Origin: a virus
Taxonomy: Duplodnaviria; Heunggongvirae; Uroviricota; Caudoviricetes
Reading direction: 5' to 3' (one strand)
Virus record (IMG/VR): IMGVR_UViG_645058835_000001
Location: 1-13,104 of that record
DNA: 13,104 nt
In this document: positions 1-5,992 of the stretch, piece after piece
Layout of the letters: each line of letters starts with the position of its first letter
Numbering within the stretch: position 1 is the stretch's first letter
Program-made: the position numbers and the translations under genes
The notes under the pieces: model-generated
What the model was told of the DNA's origin: nothing
Database searches by the model: none
Seen by the model: the letters and a program-made list of their open reading frames with translations, nothing else

Positions 1-1230
1 ATGTTTAACAAAATGGATGTAACCAAACTGAACCTCCCGAAGGTTGATATAGAAGAAATGCTTCGAAGGATAAATTCAGGAAAAGCCATTTTATTTACCG
101 GGGCAGGTTTTTCACGTAAAACAAAAAATATAACAAATGGTGAACCACCTCTTGCAAAAGCGCTATCTAAGAAAATAAGTCAGCTCGCAGGGTTAGGTTC
201 TGATAATGAAGATTTAATGTTCACTTCTCGTTTCTTTCTGAAGCACGGAAATAAAAGCGAACTTCTTAAACTATTAAAAGATAATTTTGTGTTGCGTGAA
301 GTTTCTGAATATCATGAGAAAATTTGTTCCTTACCATGGCGAAGGTTTTACACTACAAATTATGATAATTCTATTGAATTGGCATGTCTCAAAACCGGAA
401 GGAGAGTTGAGTCATTGGATATTGATGACCTTCCAAAGGATCATATTTCTCAAGGTGATTTATGTGTACATCTTAATGGCGCTATTGATAAAGCGATAAT
501 ATCCGACCTCGATTCTAAAATAAAGCTTACAAACTCATCTTATCTTTCCCCTCAATCTTTCATTAGCTCCCAATGGAATTACGTTTTTAAAAGAGATCTT
601 GAAACAGCAAGTGCTGTAATATTTGTAGGATACTCCATGTATGATATGGATGTACAAAGATTGCTCTACCAGACAGATAGTCTGGTAGAAAAGACATATT
701 TTATAGTTCATGAAAATGCTAGTTTCCAGGAAACATTTTTTTTGACTGACTTCGGACACGTTTTACCTATTGGAGTAGAAGGCTTTTCTAATTTAATCAA
801 TGATATTCAATTTCAATCCAATGAAAATCGAGAAGAAATATGTCTAGATTGTTTTGAATTAAAAGAAATTAGTTACAATCATGAAACAATTACAGATACT
901 GAAATAAAAGATTTTTTACTCTTTGGAAAGCATGATGATAATCAGATTAACACTTCTGTAAGCAATGATTTTTTAGATAATTTTTTGATAAATCGCGATC
1001 TACTTAAAGAAACTATAAGGTTAATTCAATCCAAAAATAATATTCTTATTCATAGTGAGTTAGGAAATGGTAAAACCGTTTTTCTTAAAATGATAACTTA
1101 TCTGCTCGCTCGTGAAGGATATAATGTTTATACCTTCTCTGAAAAAAGTGAATATGATGATGAATTATCCGAAATTGATTGGATCGTAAAAAAACAAAAA
1201 AAATGTAGTAATTGTGATCGAAGGTTATAA
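1..1230 (+). CDS. SIR2-like (SIR2_2-type) domain protein, N-terminal part of a SIR2-P-loop NTPase; the reading frame terminates inside the NTPase domain
   Basis: 409-aa ORF starting at ATG at position 1 (true start could lie upstream of the window). Motifs in the usual SIR2 order: AILFTGAGFS, RFYTTNYDNSIE, CVHLNGAID, VIFVGYSMYDMD. A beta-strand plus Walker A-like P-loop (ILIHSELGNGKTVFLKMITYLLAREG) sits only ~55 aa before the stop, so the NTPase domain cannot be complete in this ORF. Confidence 0.75.
   Translation: MFNKMDVTKLNLPKVDIEEMLRRINSGKAILFTGAGFSRKTKNITNGEPPLAKALSKKISQLAGLGSDNEDLMFTSRFFLKHGNKSELLKLLKDNFVLREVSEYHEKICSLPWRRFYTTNYDNSIELACLKTGRRVESLDIDDLPKDHISQGDLCVHLNGAIDKAIISDLDSKIKLTNSSYLSPQSFISSQWNYVFKRDLETASAVIFVGYSMYDMDVQRLLYQTDSLVEKTYFIVHENASFQETFFLTDFGHVLPIGVEGFSNLINDIQFQSNENREEICLDCFELKEISYNHETITDTEIKDFLLFGKHDDNQINTSVSNDFLDNFLINRDLLKETIRLIQSKNNILIHSELGNGKTVFLKMITYLLAREGYNVYTFSEKSEYDDELSEIDWIVKKQKKCSNCDRRL
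1188..1203 (+). repeat. Homopolymeric A7-C-A8 tract at the junction of the two SIR2-NTPase reading frames (candidate slippage or frameshift site)
   Basis: Read directly: cgt aaaaaaa c aaaaaaaa tgt. Frame 1 stops at 1228-1230; frame 2 is open from 1190. Removing one A joins them with no stop codon. Confidence 0.9.
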
Positions 1231-2482
1231 TAAAGCAGAACGATTGCTAAATCATATTAATATCAATTATCCTGATGAAATATCGATAATAATTACTGAT
1301 AGAAGTGCAATTGCTTTAAGAACAGCTTACTTCATCAATTCATTAGATATTGAGTTTTCTGAAGTTAGTTTAGATCAGTTAACCGAATCTGAAATTTCTG
1401 ATTTTGTTGATTTGATAGAAAATCAAGGTCTGTGGTCAGAACTTACATCATTGTCAAAGATTAACAAAATCAAAAAAGTTAAAGAAGATTACAATGGCCA
1501 AATCTCAGGGATATTATTAGGTTTACTTAAAAGCCCTTCAATTCAAGAAAGAATCAAATATTTAACAGATGAGTTGTTTAAATCTCAAGAGTATAAAGAT
1601 ACTGTGTTTGCCATAGCATTATGTGACATAATTGATGTAAGAAAAACATCTTCTATTATTTCTGAAATGGCAGGGAATGATAGTATTTATAAAATGAGTC
1701 TTAGATCAAGTGATCAGTTCAAATCTTTATATCGGTTCACAGAAAGCGGTACTGCAATTGAGACAAAATCAAGTCTAATGTCTCTTACGATCATAAATAA
1801 TAGTTTTAATGTGAGCTATGTTAGACATAAACTACTATCAATAGTCGAGACATTTAACAATCTTAAAAATGTATCGTATGATGCAAATAAAATATTTAAA
1901 TCTTTACTAAGGTTTCATGTTTTAGAAGTTTTGCTACCGCAAAAGCAAAAAGCATTGGATAGCTATTACATGGAATTGAAGCGGGTTTGCCCGTGGCTTA
2001 CTGACTCCCCACACTATTGGGTACAATATGCTATGTGTAGACTTTCAATAGGAGATTTAGACTCTGCTCAAACCTATTTAAATGATGCATACTCTTTAGC
2101 TAGATCAAAAGAAGATTATCATACGGAAAATATTGATACGCAGCAGGCTAGATTGCTAATAATGAAGTGTTTAAAAGAACCTGACTCTGGTAAGTGCTTT
2201 GATAGTTTCATCGAAGCTCATAACATACTTATTGGATTGCCTGATGATGGTTATAAGTATAGACAAATAATTCCGTATAAAGATGTCTATGAGCTAAAGT
2301 ATAAACACTTTAATAAAGGTAATAAAGTTCAATTTGAACATGCTTGCAAGGCTCTTTTAGCTCAAGTAAGTTCCGTTGATTACCACCAAGATGATCTTAC
2401 TTTAATTAAAAGAGTATCATTTATAAATAGAAGCAAGGTTATTTTAGAGGAAATAGTAAAAAGTATAACATCCAATAGATGA
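1214..2482 (+). CDS. Continuation of the same SIR2-NTPase protein (rest of the NTPase domain plus an alpha-helical, TPR-like C-terminal region); probably not an independent gene
   Basis: 422-aa ORF in the +1 frame relative to 1..1230, overlapping it by 17 nt. It begins at GTG with no Shine-Dalgarno and has no in-frame ATG for ~140 codons. Its frame opens at 1190, inside the A7-C-A8 tract. Helical repeat-like sequence near the C-terminus (YWVQYAMCRLSIGDLDSAQTYLNDAYSLA). Confidence 0.6.
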   Translation: MIEGYNKAERLLNHININYPDEISIIITDRSAIALRTAYFINSLDIEFSEVSLDQLTESEISDFVDLIENQGLWSELTSLSKINKIKKVKEDYNGQISGILLGLLKSPSIQERIKYLTDELFKSQEYKDTVFAIALCDIIDVRKTSSIISEMAGNDSIYKMSLRSSDQFKSLYRFTESGTAIETKSSLMSLTIINNSFNVSYVRHKLLSIVETFNNLKNVSYDANKIFKSLLRFHVLEVLLPQKQKALDSYYMELKRVCPWLTDSPHYWVQYAMCRLSIGDLDSAQTYLNDAYSLARSKEDYHTENIDTQQARLLIMKCLKEPDSGKCFDSFIEAHNILIGLPDDGYKYRQIIPYKDVYELKYKHFNKGNKVQFEHACKALLAQVSSVDYHQDDLTLIKRVSFINRSKVILEEIVKSITSNR

Positions 2483-2489
2483 TTTTTAT

Positions 2490-2514
2490 AAAGCAGTGGT
2501 TAATACACTGCTTT
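2490..2514 (+). terminator. Hairpin terminator candidate downstream of the SIR2-NTPase gene
   Basis: AAAGCAGTG (2490-2498), loop GTTAATA, CACTGCTTT (2506-2514): a 9-bp perfect stem starting 8 nt after the TGA at 2480-2482, followed by TATATTG. Confidence 0.5.
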
Positions 2515-2781
2515 ATATTGAGTTTCATGAATACACCATTACTGTTATTCAGTACTCATGGCTAGCGTTCTGGTATGTACTCGAGGATATTCTCCGACAT
2601 ATCGGGTTTTAAATACTCAAAACCTCAAGTGAGCGCTTTTATGACGCGCTTTTTGTATTGTTAACCCAACCGTAATCTACAGACAAAAAACCATCAGAAT
2701 CGTGCATAGGCGCTCAAATTTCACGGCTGGGGATTTCTACGTGCATTCAACCCAAAAAGTGACCGAAAAAGTGCTTACAGA

Positions 2782-2803
2782 GTTGACGTTACGTTGACGT
2801 TGT
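2782..2803. repeat. Tandem direct repeat GTTGACGTT x2 with 11-bp period (iteron-like); further TGACG cores at 2884-2891, 2972-2978 and 3005-3010
   Basis: Read directly: aGTTGACGTTacGTTGACGTTgt. Confidence 0.8.
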
Positions 2804-2830
2804 TTTCTGGTGATTTTTGCTCAGTGGTTG

Positions 2831-2856
2831 TTATTATATGTTTGATTATTATATGT
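2831..2856. repeat. AT-rich direct repeat TTATTATATGT x2 with 15-bp period
   Basis: Read directly: TTATTATATGTttgaTTATTATATGT. Confidence 0.8.
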
Positions 2857-2871
2857 ATTTTTAATGTATTG

Positions 2872-2911
2872 CTCACTTCAAACTCACGTCAACTCACTCT
2901 TATAGAGTGAT
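2872..2911. repeat. Three CTCAC repeats at ~10-bp spacing running into a 7-bp-arm palindrome TCACTCT-TAT-AGAGTGA (2895-2911)
   Basis: Read directly: gCTCACttcaAACTCACgtcAACTCACTCTtatAGAGTGA. Confidence 0.8.
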
Positions 2912-3024
2912 TAATTTCTATAAGTACTTTATCTCAAAATTTGATTTTTACGGATGGAAGCCCATCAAAGTAACGTCATTTTTTTCTAAGACTTTGATCT
3001 TTCGTTGACGGTGTTAGTGGGGAC

Positions 3025-3054
3025 TTCGGTCATCGAGCGCAATGCGCTCTTCTG
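3025..3054. repeat. Imperfect 30-bp palindrome with a perfect central 15-bp core GAGCGCAATGCGCTC flanked by GGTCA/TGACC
   Basis: Read directly: GGTCAtcGAGCGCAATGCGCTCttcTGACC. Confidence 0.75.
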
Positions 3055-3188
3055 ACCGTTTCAATGGATAGGTTCGCCTTCTTGCGCCTCTCGCGGCGTT
3101 TGCCGGCTCCGCGCTTTTGGCGGTTTGGCAGGCATATCTCTCTTATTATTGGTCGTTTTTTGCACTGCCTTGTCACGATCTGTCACTA

Positions 3189-4241
3189 CTAGTAGTAATG
3201 GTCATAACCTCCGCTTTCTCTTCTGGCTCTGGATGCTCTCACTCGTGCTTTTCTTAACATCCTTAACAGCGGGTGGGTTTGTACTTTGTTCGAGTTTATT
3301 ATCTGTGAGGATAGTAACTCCCTGCGCTCTGTCTCTGCCTCTTTGGTGACCGCTATCACTGATAAATCCCAATCGTGTTTGCTAATTAACGGTGCTTGGA
3401 ACGGGGTGATTGGTGAGCGATTTATGTCTTGTCGTTTCAATGTACGCTGTATCTGTCGCTTAGCTTTGTAGTTGTCTTTCCTTGATGCCTGAACGGCTTT
3501 TAGTATGCGTCTTACAGCATGAAAGCCAGTGATAGAAAGTGTTTCTTTTTTTATCACATGCCGCGCCCAGCCATTCGAATAACCCCAAACGTTGGCATCT
3601 GACCAATCATATAGGCTCTTGCTCGCCTCTCTATTAAAGTCATTTAACTTAGTTTCGGGCTTTGCCATGTAATCAATCTGTTTACCTATACACTTTGTAG
3701 GCTCTGAATATTGCTGACCTTTCAAATCTAGATCCCACTGGGGAGGAACATTTGATGGGATTGCATTGTTTGCCAGTGTTACCCATTTGCTGACAATTTT
3801 GCCAGCTTGCCCATTAATGCTTCTTTCGTTCACCATGATTATTGCGTGTACATGCGGCTCTGACTGGTGTTGAGCCCACTCCATGACGTAAACCCACTGA
3901 TTGCCTTTCGAAGTCAACCATCTGGTAAGTGCCTTTAACGCTTTGTTGAATTTCTCTGGCGTTGTTCCCTTAACGGGTCTGAAGGTAAAGGAGTAGGGGA
4001 TACCACTAGTTGATTCGACATCCAGAGTAAACAAAGCTCGCCTCATTGTACGCCATTTCTTCTTTGTCCAGGCTGGTGGTATGCAGTGGTTAGCCTTTGA
4101 TGATTGGCGTTTATTCTCTGCCTTTAATTCATTACGTTTGTGCGTAACTGATTTCACATAAGCTAATGTGCGACCATTGATGTGATTGATTACGGCTTGT
4201 GATTTTGTGGATAGACTCGCGTCTTTATCGTATAATTCCAT
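3189..4241 (-). CDS. HUH-endonuclease-type rolling-circle replication initiator-like protein (YfjJ/YagK, inovirus Gp2-like family)
   Basis: 350-aa ORF. Motif order typical of RCR Rep proteins: RALFTLDV / YSFTFRP (motif 1-like), EPHVHAIIMV (HUH), KQIDYMAKPETK (catalytic Tyr-x-x-x-Lys). Basic C-terminal tail. Last gene of a coupled leftward operon. Confidence 0.6.
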   Translation of the reverse strand: MELYDKDASLSTKSQAVINHINGRTLAYVKSVTHKRNELKAENKRQSSKANHCIPPAWTKKKWRTMRRALFTLDVESTSGIPYSFTFRPVKGTTPEKFNKALKALTRWLTSKGNQWVYVMEWAQHQSEPHVHAIIMVNERSINGQAGKIVSKWVTLANNAIPSNVPPQWDLDLKGQQYSEPTKCIGKQIDYMAKPETKLNDFNREASKSLYDWSDANVWGYSNGWARHVIKKETLSITGFHAVRRILKAVQASRKDNYKAKRQIQRTLKRQDINRSPITPFQAPLISKHDWDLSVIAVTKEAETERRELLSSQIINSNKVQTHPLLRMLRKARVRASRARRESGGYDHYY

Positions 4242-4268
4242 GTGTAAAGTTCATATATTTCAATTGCT

Positions 4269-4655
4269 TCAAAGCCGACTCTCGCAAAGTCGGCTTTCTG
4301 CTTTGTCAATCACAGGTATCTGTCTCCTCATCCGTTCTATTGCATGATTGAACCCTAAGTCTTCCGCGAGAGATACGTCATCCATATTGTCATTGTCATC
4401 CTCAATATCCCGTGATTCTGGAATTGCAGACTTTATTCCCGCATTCTCCGCCGCCAGCGCCGCGCACTTGGCCTCAAGGTTATCAATCGTGATTCCAGCA
4501 GAACGGCACTCCCGCAACGCCGTTTCTAGTTTTGATTCAAGTTCACCGAACTTACGGACAAGATATTCAGCGTTTGTTTCGTTAACATTTAAATCACTTG
4601 GGATGCATTTACCTTTCAGAAATCCATCCATCTCAATTAGTGTCATTTGTTTCAT
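4269..4655 (-). CDS. Hypothetical protein (128 aa), acidic C-terminal half
   Basis: ORF with GGAG-like Shine-Dalgarno upstream of the ATG at 4655; its ATG overlaps the stop of the upstream 54-aa ORF (ATGA). Confidence 0.55.
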
Positions 4656-4816
4656 TTCTTCCCACTCCGCAACATCGCATTCAGATATTTGTTTTGATTC
4701 ACTGATGGAAAAGAATTTCTCTTAAGCAATTCCTCTCTCGATGGCATTGGCTTTACGCGTTGGCGAATAATCATTTCTGCCGGAAGAATGCCGGGATTGT
4801 ATGCAAGTCCTCTCAT
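4652..4816 (-). CDS. Small hypothetical protein (54 aa, [54 protein letters not shown]), not in the supplied ORF track
   Basis: Hand-translated from the minus strand with no internal stop. Its ATG (4816-4814) overlaps the TGA of the upstream gene (ATGA) and its TGA (4654-4652) overlaps the ATG of the downstream gene (ATGA), so it exactly fills the gap between two accepted genes. Confidence 0.5.
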
Positions 4817-5103
4817 GATTTACTCTCCACGAACTGGTCAATAGCCATGCTAAGTGACACACCTAAAGTCTCGATATGCTGCTGAATATCCTGTAGCGTC
4901 TGCGCCTGAGATAACAGGATTTCACGGTTGCATAATTCTTTAACCAGATGCTCAAACTTGCTGTAATAACCGATACGGCTTAGTGTTTCTTTCCCTGCAT
5001 TCTCGCCTTCTTTGATAATTCCTCTTTCGCTAAGAATCAGATCGTGTTTGGTTCCGGTAATAACGTATTTTCCGAGGTCGATGTTTAGCTTCATTGTTTT
5101 CAT
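4813..5103 (-). CDS. Hypothetical protein (96 aa; start at [13 protein letters not shown] rather than the longer track ORF)
   Basis: GAGGAA Shine-Dalgarno 6-7 nt upstream of the ATG at 5103-5101; begins 10 nt after the stop of the upstream gene. Confidence 0.6.
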
Positions 5104-5113
5104 TGTTAATTCC

Positions 5114-5407
5114 TCAGTCATTACTGATAGCGCCATAGCGTGAGCGGTAATTACGCAGGCGCGGGTCAATTTCAGGGAAGTGTGTATATGTTGCTTTGCG
5201 GAATGGTCGGATTGATGTCTGGTAAATTCGCTCGCGTTCTTCTTTCTCTGCAAGCCATATACAGTGGCGAAATTCCTTTTCCTCTTTCGTTTCCTGCGGT
5301 AGAGACATTATTCGATCGTAGTTTTTTCTGAATTTATCCAGCACCTCCGATACGGAATTGCCGGAACAGCGGCGTGGGTCATCCGCACCATACAGAGGCG
5401 CTGGCAT
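5114..5407 (-). CDS. Hypothetical protein (97 aa)
   Basis: ORF with AAGGA Shine-Dalgarno ~8 nt upstream of the ATG at 5407; same strand and tight spacing with neighbours. Confidence 0.6.
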   Translation of the reverse strand: MPAPLYGADDPRRCSGNSVSEVLDKFRKNYDRIMSLPQETKEEKEFRHCIWLAEKEERERIYQTSIRPFRKATYTHFPEIDPRLRNYRSRYGAISND

Positions 5408-5430
5408 AATTAAATCCTTATTTTTCTAAA

Positions 5431-5814
5431 TCAGAATGGGATGGAATCGTCGTATACAGGAGTGTTCTGCTGGTTACTACTTTGCTGCTGCGGGCCATTT
5501 CCTGAAGCTGCAAATCCAATCTTTGCATTCAGTAATTCAAGAGTGATTGATTGACCATTTTGCCCCTGATAAACATCAACCCTGATGTTTTCTCCGGTAA
5601 TTTCCACAATGCCACCTTCAACAAGAACACTACGGTAGTAATCCGCTTGCGCTCCCGGCTTGGCAAATACAACGGCGCTGTAGTTTGTCCATTCTTTCTT
5701 TTTTGTCTGGCGATCGTAATACTGAACGCCAGCACGGATGTTGAATCCGATATTTTCCCCGGCCTGAAACTCTCTTGCGGGCTTGTTTAGTCTTACAGTA
5801 ATCGAATGTGCCAT
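5431..5814 (-). CDS. Single-stranded DNA-binding protein-like (short OB-fold SSB with an acidic C-terminal tip)
   Basis: 127 aa from MAHSITVRLNKP. C-terminus ...NTPVYDDSIPF resembles the conserved SSB tail DDDIPF; a Gln/Asn/Gly-rich linker precedes the tail. GGAG upstream of the ATG at 5814-5812. Confidence 0.55.
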   Translation of the reverse strand: MAHSITVRLNKPAREFQAGENIGFNIRAGVQYYDRQTKKKEWTNYSAVVFAKPGAQADYYRSVLVEGGIVEITGENIRVDVYQGQNGQSITLELLNAKIGFAASGNGPQQQSSNQQNTPVYDDSIPF

Positions 5815-5951
5815 TAAGCAGCCGCTCCTTCTAATTCGTCTCGTCTGATGTTGTAAACGCCCTGCGCTTTGTGCTGCTCCGGTGTGCCTTCGAGCATCTT
5901 CCACGCTTTGGCGAACGCCTGTTTAAGCTCTTCTACGGTGTTTTTCTGCAT
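5814..5951 (-). CDS. Possible small leader ORF (~45 aa, MQKNTVEELKQAFAKAWKMLEGTPEQHKAQGVYNIRRDELEGAAA) coupled to the SSB-like gene; start uncertain
   Basis: Its TAA stop (5816-5814) overlaps the SSB-like ATG (TAATG). No convincing Shine-Dalgarno; the longer track version (to 6113) overlaps the DnaB-like ORF on the opposite strand. Confidence 0.25.
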   Translation of the reverse strand: MQKNTVEELKQAFAKAWKMLEGTPEQHKAQGVYNIRRDELEGAAA

Positions 5952-5992
5952 TGCTGCGTCAGTGAATGCTTTTAGAACCTGTTCAGGTGTAG

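What the first reader, a model, noticed from the sequence alone, without database searches (positions are those of the whole stretch)
3189..4241. Rolling-circle (HUH) initiator-like protein in an integrase-bearing island
Seen: HUH motif (PHVHAII) and a Tyr-x-x-x-Lys motif (IDYMAKPETK) in the expected order. Established knowledge: YfjJ/YagK-like (inovirus Gp2-like) proteins are frequent in P4-type cryptic islands of enterobacteria but are poorly characterised. Inference: it may drive element replication after excision, with a nick site in one of the nearby palindromes (2895-2911 or 3025-3054).
Basis: partly seen in the sequence, partly recalled or inferred. Interest (0 to 1): 0.45.

Follow-up and report, generated by a model that had tools for sequence, protein, structure and literature searches.

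The report
Rolling-circle Rep gene, stranded island remnant
The gene is a real, intact nicking-type (HUH) replication-initiator gene, but it belongs to the decayed remnant of a small plasmid-like island carrying anti-phage genes at the E. coli argW tRNA site, not to the integrase-bearing prophage wreck next to it, and public annotation already names it correctly.

Summary

It is a Rep-class HUH initiator with one catalytic Tyr. It is not a member of the YagK/YfjJ family, only a distant relative.

The window lies at argW of E. coli 357900. The IntS integrase belongs to a degraded P22-like prophage. That prophage integrated in tandem and then fused by deletion (junction 4319|4320) to an older ~11-kb island. 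In intact copies the island reads: tRNA-Arg, own integrase, 251-aa gene, AlpA, three small genes, Rep, origin-like module, variable cargo (mostly defence or candidate-defence genes), serine recombinase.

Four backbone genes, and a noncoding core (window 2919-2988), are shared with untyped 4.5-6.3-kb circular elements (small Klebsiella plasmids and related circular contigs). In the one plasmid fully scanned, Rep is the only replication candidate.

Most likely Rep nicks this origin and drives rolling-circle replication of the excised island. Here it is stranded.

PGAP already calls it "rolling circle replication-associated protein". Similar islands were described in 2025. Modest interest.

The parts
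3189..4241 (-). rep: 350-aa Rep-class HUH endonuclease. Motif I is F84-T-F-R-P (3978-3992), HUH is P129-HVHAII (3837-3857), and the Tyr motif is I189-DYMAKPETK (3648-3677, Y191). It has a helical, basic C-terminal domain and no helicase domain.
4271..4297 (-). GC hairpin (AAAGCCGACT-TTGCGAG-AGTCGGCTTT) immediately upstream of rep. It is identical in the Klebsiella island. A hairpin of different sequence occupies the same position in four of the five small circular elements examined. It looks like a terminator or attenuator.
   Evidence: (dG -10.9, z -3.8)
2919..2988 (-). Conserved noncoding core TAGAAAA-N(12-22)-GANGGG-N(30-50)-CTTATA, on the rep-sense strand. It occurs once per element in both islands and in five small circular elements whose Reps are only 24-29% identical. 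It is the best candidate for the replication origin (nick region).
   Evidence: 0 of 200 shuffles
2719..3010 (-). Origin-like module as a whole. It comprises four GTTGACG copies (2782-2788, 2793-2799, 2887-2893 inverted, 3004-3010), an AT-rich stretch (about 2825-2870), and blocks 76-77% conserved with the Klebsiella island, where the module lies after the cargo genes.
2895..2911 (.). Palindrome CACTCT-TAT-AGAGTG. It holds the inverted second copy of CTTATAGA (inverted-repeat arms 2899-2906 and 2917-2924). It is shared with the 4.5-kb circular element L015 but not with the other elements.
3028..3056 (.). Stable hairpin GGTCA..GAGCGC-AAT-GCGCTC..TGACC downstream of rep. It is not conserved in the Klebsiella island and is probably not the origin.
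   Evidence: (dG -12.7, z -5.2)
4319..4320 (.). Junction between the island remnant (<= 4319) and the P22-like prophage remnant (>= 4320). It lies 8 nt upstream of the stop codon of the island's deleted 128-aa gene. As a result, ORF 4269-4655 ('Ead/Ea22-like') is chimeric in its last 17 codons.
1..2482 (+). Island cargo: an 826-aa SIR2 + STAND-NTPase gene, split here into two ORFs by a 1-nt insertion in a poly-A run near 1190-1210.
11947..13104 (-). intS, a P4-type tyrosine integrase belonging to the prophage remnant. It is NOT the Rep element's own integrase.

Best explanation
The ORF encodes the replication initiator of a small plasmid-like replicon that has been joined to a P4-type int/alpA integration module. 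Together they form an ~11-kb argW-specific mobile island with a cargo slot that mostly holds anti-phage genes.

Inferred mechanism: Int and AlpA excise the island as a circle. Rep binds the origin-like module about 200-270 bp downstream of its own gene (TTGACG repeats) and nicks one strand in or near the conserved core (window 2919-2988). H130, H132 and E121 hold the metal ion, and Y191 forms the 5'-phosphotyrosine link. A host helicase and Pol III then carry out rolling-circle synthesis, since Rep has no helicase domain. The serine recombinase resolves multimers.

In this window the element is a remnant. A P22-like prophage integrated in tandem at argW, and a later deletion removed the island's int, alpA and the 251-, 63-, 64- and 128-aa genes. 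rep, its origin and the cargo are therefore stranded next to a foreign integrase.

Shown: motifs, fold, synteny, the conserved core, the junction and the att repeats. Inferred: nicking, the origin assignment, and replication after excision.
For: HUH/Rep class. The order HUH then Tyr is the Rep order, not the relaxase order (direct reading plus established knowledge of HUH enzymes).

Native island and variable cargo.

Boundaries: 20-23-nt direct repeats of the tRNA-Arg 3' end.

Plasmid link: homologues at 24-29% identity sit on circular 5.3-6.3-kb Klebsiella plasmids and on small contigs of 4.5 and 5.6 kb whose ends overlap by 30 and 13 nt. Four genes are syntenic: HTH E 2e-12, 126/128-aa protein E 6e-32, Rep E 4e-22, serine recombinase E 2e-56. 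In the 5.7-kb plasmid the HUH protein is the only one with any replication signature. No RNAI-type RNA was found, and PLSDB reports no replicon type.

Conserved core: it lies on the same strand as rep in all seven elements aligned.

Tandem intermediate: seen in other genomes.

Purifying selection.

Comparable islands: tRNA-integrated E. coli MGEs with integrase, AlpA and an HUH initiator, carrying defence cargo, are described computationally in bioRxiv 10.1101/2025.09.15.676423.
Confidence: 0.68

Rival explanations
1. The protein is a mobilisation relaxase. It would nick an oriT (the conserved core) so that the excised island or small plasmid can be transferred by a co-resident conjugative system, rather than initiating vegetative replication.
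For: HUH nickases include relaxases, and there is a weak Pfam Relaxase (MobA/VirD2) match, E 0.0078. Rep-like relaxases exist (MOBT; own knowledge, also listed in PMC8152469). The conserved core is strand-specific, as an oriT would be.
Against: The Relaxase score is 16.9 bits against a cutoff of 24.6. The catalytic Tyr lies C-terminal to HUH, which is the Rep arrangement, whereas classical HUH relaxases have it N-terminal (established knowledge, Chandler et al. 2013). The small plasmids would be left without any replication initiator or RNAI-type origin. MOB-suite types 14 of 16 as non-mobilisable. No coupling-protein or accessory mob genes are present.
Confidence: 0.12
2. It is a domesticated or non-replicative HUH protein, like the uncharacterised YagK/YfjJ proteins of cryptic islands. 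For example, it might be a regulator, or a nuclease that interferes with phage DNA, retained for host or island benefit rather than for replication.
For: It is distantly related to YfjJ. It is always next to defence cargo. It is chromosomal and single-copy in 543 of 5426 E. coli genomes. It persists intact in this remnant.
Against: Synteny and a cis-element are shared with autonomous small plasmids. There is no PADLOC hit. It is frequently truncated when the island decays, as in the O157:H7 lineage, which argues against host-level selection. Identity with the intact island copy (100%) points to a recent deletion rather than retention.
Confidence: 0.1
3. It is an HUH transposase (IS91/ISCR, Helitron-like or IS200/IS605-like) or the gpII of an integrated filamentous (inovirus) prophage.
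Against: The gene is single-copy and always at argW (median 1 place per genome, none on plasmids). No inovirus morphogenesis or coat genes are among the neighbours. There is no tblastn match in 50,697 phage records. It has one Tyr rather than the two of IS91-type enzymes.
Confidence: 0.03

Closest known systems
YagK/YfjJ proteins (Pfam PF11726) of CP4-6 and CP4-57 type islands in E. coli K-12
   Same: Both are Rep-order HUH proteins with a Y-x-x-K motif and both touch PF23343 at about 30 bits. The island grammar is the same: P4-type int, alpA, HUH gene, then defence cargo on the opposite strand (abpAB and rnlAB in CP4-57).
   Different: There is no PF11726 match. BLASTP gives only E 0.002 at 22% identity. 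This protein is 350 aa with a conserved basic C-terminal domain, against 208 aa for YfjJ. The conserved core pattern is absent from the CP4-57 locus. The integration site and accessory genes differ.
tRNA-integrated E. coli MGEs with integrase, AlpA-like excisionase and HUH rolling-circle initiator that deliver defence islands (bioRxiv 10.1101/2025.09.15.676423, section 11)
   Same: The architecture and proposed life style are the same, including sequential integrations at one tRNA gene followed by immobilisation of the older element. That is exactly what is seen here.
   Different: [quoted passage not shown] This one is an ~11-kb argW element. The link to small plasmids and the conserved origin-like core are not described there. 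Both cases are computational only.
AICEs such as pSAM2 of Streptomyces (int-xis-repSA; te Poele et al. 2008, PMC2440964)
   Same: Both are tRNA-integrated elements of about 11 kb that excise and then replicate by rolling circle using their own initiator (RepSA in pSAM2).
   Different: They occur in Actinobacteria, carry a conjugative TraSA, and use a pC194-family Rep. There is no sequence relationship, and this island has no transfer gene.
Phage satellites: P4-like elements, PICIs and the minimalist PICMIs (PMC10803314)
   Same: Shared features are the int + alpA module, a size near 10 kb, defence cargo, and tRNA or hotspot integration. PICMI115 replicates as concatemers consistent with rolling circle.
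   Different: This island has no primase-helicase (P4 alpha, PICI Pri-Rep) and no sid/psu/terS/ppi or capsid genes. No helper phage is known. The initiator is an HUH nickase shared with small plasmids.
Inovirus/plectrovirus and microvirus initiators (gpII/G2P, SpV1 ORF2, phiX174 gpA)
   Same: They share the Pfam family (PF23343) and the fold (BFVD hits). All are single-domain nickases that depend on a host helicase.
   Different: No virion genes are present. The element is an integrated dsDNA island or plasmid, and there is no sequence match in phage records.

Membership tests
HUH endonuclease superfamily, Rep class | HUH metal-binding motif on a beta-strand, conserved across homologues | tested here: met
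   H130 and H132 are invariant in 20 sequences and lie on strand 130-137 of the AF2 model.
HUH endonuclease superfamily, Rep class | Catalytic Tyr (Y-x-x-K) on a helix C-terminal to HUH, plus motif I | tested here: met
   Y191 and K194 are invariant. T86 and L87 are near-invariant. Y191 lies in helix 185-192.
HUH endonuclease superfamily, Rep class | HUH nuclease fold | tested here: met
HUH endonuclease superfamily, Rep class | Site-specific ssDNA nicking with a 5'-phosphotyrosine intermediate | not testable with these tools
   This needs biochemistry.
Pfam PF23343 REP_ORF2-G2P | Score at or above the gathering threshold | tested here: met
   29.8 bits against 27.8, which is narrow. Homologues carry PF23343 in the precomputed tables.
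YagK/YfjJ family (PF11726) | Match to the YagK_YfjJ_C profile | tested here: not met
   No hit at E <= 0.01. The positive control YfjJ gives 1e-63.
Integrated inovirus (filamentous prophage) | gpII accompanied by ssDNA-binding, coat and Zot/pI morphogenesis genes | tested here: not met
   Neighbours are AlpA, HTH proteins, unknowns, a defence gene and a recombinase. There is no phage-record match.
HUH conjugative relaxases (MOB F/Q/P/V) | Catalytic Tyr N-terminal to the histidine motif; Relaxase profile above threshold | tested here: not met
   The order is HUH (130) then Tyr (191). PF03432 scores 16.9 bits against 24.6.
P4-like satellites / PICIs | Primase-helicase or Pri-Rep initiator plus capsid- or packaging-hijack genes (sid/psu/delta, terS, ppi) | tested here: not met
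   No such Pfam, PHROG or NCBIfam hits in the intact island L002. Only int and alpA are shared. SatelliteFinder itself was not run.
Classical RCR plasmid Rep families (pC194/pUB110 Rep_1, pMV158 Rep_2, pT181 Rep_trans) | Match to the respective Pfam profiles | tested here: not met
   None is listed at E <= 0.01. RepB is similar in fold only.
HUH transposases (IS91/IS200-605/Helitron) | Multiple copies or variable insertion sites; two Tyr (IS91) | tested here: not met
   544 places in 543 genomes, all chromosomal, and at argW in every locus inspected. There is a single invariant Tyr.

The most novel reading that the evidence does not exclude
Rep plus the conserved core would define an unrecognised enterobacterial replicon type that exists in two states. 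One is free 5-6-kb plasmids in Klebsiella. The other is an argW-integrating 'integrative rolling-circle plasmid' that ferries anti-phage genes. In the strongest reading the island is a phage satellite. Infection or induction of the P22-like phages that share its att site would trigger excision and rolling-circle amplification into concatemers, which are packaged by headful packaging and so spread the defence cargo.
Probability: 0.2. Interest if true: 0.65.

Novelty: new member of a known kind. Interest (0 to 1): 0.35.

Why it matters
Many E. coli defence islands are 'integrase-only' elements with no known means of movement (PMC10121019). This family may fill that gap. It carries a plasmid-type rolling-circle replicon, Rep plus a conserved origin-like core, which also runs untyped small Klebsiella plasmids. 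That gives a concrete, testable mechanism for how such islands amplify after excision and how their cargo slot is exchanged. It also supplies a marker, Rep plus the core motif, for typing plasmids that replicon schemes currently miss. For this particular window the practical message is smaller. The gene is correctly annotated in RefSeq, apart from inconsistent start codons, and sits in a dead composite of two elements.

Tried and rejected
(1) AF2 with the shallow 6-sequence alignment gave pLDDT 39. I discarded it and used the 20-sequence model instead.

(2) The word-indexed homologue search returned only 8-11 proteins, even with profiles. The exhaustive HMMER search was needed.

(3) NCBIfam gave no family for Rep or the small island proteins. 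PADLOC gave nothing for Rep.

(4) The phage collection gave no tblastn hit.

(5) Scanning IMG/VR with the loose three-block core pattern returned more than 120 hits in unrelated contigs. That many are expected by chance for 18 specified bases with two variable gaps, so the result is uninformative.

The afdb50 library was unavailable.

(7) RNAalifold on the core found no convincing conserved hairpin.

(8) Rfam found no known RNA in the window or the small plasmids.

(9) The promoter and terminator scan around rep was at background level for promoters.

(10) I first thought the junction arose by homologous recombination between an island 'ea22-like' gene and the phage ea22 gene. I rejected this because the two 128-aa ORFs share only the last ~50 nt, which are island sequence. 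The equal lengths are a coincidence.

(11) The genome-contig scan found relatives in only two further species, E. albertii and a Citrobacter sp..

Full report
**Observation.**
The ORF 3189..4241 is real, lies on the minus strand, and encodes 350 aa. Read directly from the sequence, PHVHAII is residues 129-135 and IDYMAKPETK is residues 189-198, so the order is HUH then Tyr. Pfam places residues 85-146 in PF23343 (REP_ORF2-G2P) at 29.8 bits against a 27.8 cutoff, which is a narrow pass. A MobA/VirD2 relaxase match falls below threshold. NCBIfam has nothing. PHROGs has only an 'unknown function' family built from a truncated version.

**Is it more than chance?**
- The family is rare. Word-indexed searches of 5.8 billion proteins gave 8-11 hits. 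An exhaustive HMMER search of 1.84 billion representatives gave 28 clusters.
- I aligned 20 full-length members at 17-52% identity. The only invariant residues after the initiator Met are E121, P129, H130, H132, W153, Q177, Y191 and K194. Motif I (T86, L87) is nearly invariant. This is the classical Rep motif I/II/III set with a single catalytic Tyr.
- AF2 with this alignment gave pLDDT 75, about 90 in the core. HUH lies on a strand and Y191 in the following helix.
- Foldseek against PDB was dominated by HUH nucleases, but none reached E <= 1e-3.
- BFVD gave 46 hits at E <= 1e-3. The named ones are ORF2/G2P-domain proteins, microvirus initiators and CRESS Reps.
- The frame is intact in 7 of 7 E. 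coli and E. albertii alleles examined. dN/dS is 0.21-0.43 in the six comparisons that show substitutions. Against Klebsiella it is about 0.13, with dS saturated.
- The N-terminus MELYDKDA is conserved in Klebsiella and W59-T60 in distant members. The 350-aa start is therefore right, and the 285- and 215-aa starts in some RefSeq records are too short.

**Where the window comes from.**
The window matches E. coli 357900 (NZ_CP038859.1) with 4 mismatches and a 1-nt insertion. It lies at the argW tRNA-Arg locus between yfdC and the csc/dsd genes. PGAP already names the gene 'rolling circle replication-associated protein'.

**The window is a composite of two elements.**
From 4320 to 13104 it is a wreck of a P22-like prophage. 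In order this holds:
- an ea22-like gene, DUF2737, DUF5405 and abc2;
- an SSB-like gene and a truncated erf;
- a dnaB fragment fused to the end of a DNA-transfer gene;
- mnt, an HNH endonuclease and the tailspike;
- an O-antigen polymerase and intS.

From 1 to 4319 it is the distal part of a different element.

**The intact island.**
In other E. coli strains, and in Klebsiella pneumoniae and Citrobacter, rep sits in a compact island. Its order is tRNA-Arg, a 428-aa P4-type integrase (32% identical to IntS), a 246/251-aa protein, AlpA, 63-aa, a 64-aa HTH protein, 128-aa, Rep, noncoding module, cargo, a small ORF, and a serine recombinase. The island is bounded by 20-23-nt direct repeats of the tRNA 3' end and measures 11.1 kb in strain MB07011. 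In the window's genome the same repeats enclose a 15-kb composite with no internal att copy.

**The cargo differs between strains.**
- SIR2 + STAND NTPase in the window strain;
- GapS6a/b;
- a ParA-family protein;
- two unknown proteins;
- in Klebsiella, an HNH nuclease matching candidate system PDC-M68A.

**How the composite arose.**
Identity to the intact island stops abruptly at 4319|4320. That is 8 nt before the stop codon of the island's 128-aa gene. IMG/VR prophage calls from other isolates preserve the predicted intermediate: phage ea genes, a partial att, then int428 through rep. The history is therefore island first, then tandem integration of the prophage at the tRNA-proximal att, then deletions. 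O157:H7 and O55:H7 genomes carry a different scar, with rep truncated at window 3907 next to a P22-like tail-needle gene. Overall the rep region occurs in 543 of 5426 complete E. coli genomes. It is always chromosomal and essentially single-copy, and 226 genomes cover at least 80% of it.

**Link to small plasmids.**
tblastn against PLSDB found homologues at 24-29% identity (E down to 5e-21) in 16 records from Klebsiella and Enterobacter. Most are circular plasmids of 5.3-6.3 kb, typed non-mobilisable and with no replicon type shown. Two small contigs carrying distant members have terminal overlaps of 30 and 13 nt, consistent with circles of about 4.5 and 5.6 kb. These replicons share a four-gene synteny with the island:
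- HTH protein: 44% identity, E 2e-12;
- 126/128-aa protein: 40% identity, E 6e-32;
- Rep: E 4e-22;
- serine recombinase: 44% identity, E 2e-56.

In the 5.7-kb plasmid no other protein has any replication signature. No RNAI-type RNA is detected. By elimination the HUH protein is the plasmid's initiator. The island is thus a plasmid replicon welded to an int/alpA module.

**Cis elements.**
- All four GTTGACG copies in the 13-kb window fall within 2782-3010.
- The stretch 2719-3002 is 76-77% conserved with Klebsiella, where it lies after the cargo rather than directly after rep.
- Within it, a core TAGAAAA-N-GANGGG-N-CTTATA (window 2919-2988, rep-sense strand) aligns with a segment of every small circular element examined. 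blastn E-values run from 1e-7 to 2e-3, always at the same Ec segment and in the same orientation relative to rep.
- The pattern occurs once per element in 13 loci, is absent from CP4-57, and appears in 0 of 200 shuffles of the window.
- TTGACG palindromes or repeats follow the core in two plasmids and in both islands.

A noncoding block better conserved than the proteins around it is what an origin looks like, but no universal hairpin or covariation marks the nick.

It recurs in one distant circular element. The hairpin at 3025-3054 is stable but not conserved.

A GC hairpin just upstream of rep (4271-4297) is identical in Klebsiella. Hairpins of different sequence occupy the same place in four of the five small circular elements examined, one with a clear T-run. 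That suggests a terminator or attenuator controlling rep.

**Comparison with known systems.**
- K-12 YfjJ hits PF11726 at 1e-63 and PF23343 at 7e-7. This protein hits only PF23343, and BLASTP against YfjJ gives E 0.002. It is a distant relative and not a family member, although CP4-57 has the same island grammar.
- A 2025 preprint describes tRNA-integrated E. coli elements with integrase, AlpA and HUH initiators that deliver defence islands and pile up by sequential integration.
- Hochhauser et al. list many integrase-only defence islands of unknown mobility.
- pSAM2-type AICEs are the experimentally proven precedent for tRNA-integrated elements that replicate by rolling circle after excision.
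- PICMI satellites show int/alpA elements amplifying as concatemers.

**Verdict.**
The family assignment, the 'integrase-bearing island' context and one of the two nick-site guesses need correction. The most likely function is rolling-circle initiation for an excised argW island of plasmid ancestry (confidence about 0.7). The main rival is a relaxase role. In this window the gene is part of a stranded remnant. Because the gene is already correctly named and similar islands have been described, the finding is a new member of a known kind. The plasmid link and the conserved core are the parts worth following up.

Noticed in passing
window 1-2482 (poly-A run near 1190-1210): The 826-aa SIR2 + STAND-NTPase defence gene is split into two ORFs (1-1230 and 1214-2482). 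The cause is a 1-nt insertion in AAAAAAACAAAAAAAA relative to NZ_CP038859.1. It could be a sequencing error or a fresh pseudogene.
   Followed up: partly
window 5993-7000 (+): This ORF fuses a DnaB-like helicase fragment (aa 8-272) to the C-terminal end of a P22-type DNA-transfer/ejection protein (aa 266-335). It is the scar of a large internal deletion that removed most of the prophage.
   Followed up: partly
window 4269-4655 (-): The ORF annotated as 'Ead/Ea22-like' is chimeric. Its last 17 codons are island intergenic sequence read in a new frame. Its 128-aa length matches the deleted island gene only by coincidence.
   Followed up: yes
window 7481-8020 (-): An HNH endonuclease with an AP2-like DNA-binding domain sits between mnt and the tailspike gene. 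It looks like a free-standing homing endonuclease insertion.
   Followed up: no
window 8033-11632: A tailspike gene (725 aa) lies next to an O-antigen polymerase (Wzy-like, 414 aa) and intS. This is a serotype-conversion module that survived the prophage decay. attP appears to lie upstream of int, as in P4-type systems.
   Followed up: no
E. coli O157:H7 / O55:H7 genomes (hits H46-H79): The whole lineage carries rep truncated at window position 3907, abutting a P22-like tail-needle gene. This truncated form is probably the source of PHROG 30534 and of the 215-aa 'replication protein' annotations.
   Followed up: partly
RefSeq annotations of L001, L010, L011 and L012: PGAP gives the same intact 350-codon ORF three different starts (350, 285 and 215 aa) and two names ('rolling circle replication-associated protein' and 'replication protein'). 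The short starts cut off conserved residues.
   Followed up: yes
L019 (NZ_CP141860.1, 12,132 bp): This Klebsiella plasmid record is a head-to-tail dimer of a 6,066-bp unit. It could be a real multimer or an assembly artefact. Either way it fits a replicon that carries its own resolvase.
   Followed up: no
L002 11976 and 20246; L001 16976 and 30756: The 12-mer ATACCCGCTAAT occurs just outside tRNA-Arg and again between the small ORF and the SIR2 cargo. It may be chance (about 0.1 expected) or the trace of an older att or cargo-exchange site.
   Followed up: no
P0007 and P0008: Database proteins fuse parts of Rep to a Rad52/Rad22-family protein or to an integrase N-terminus. These indicate further independent deletion junctions inside rep in other strains.
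   Followed up: no
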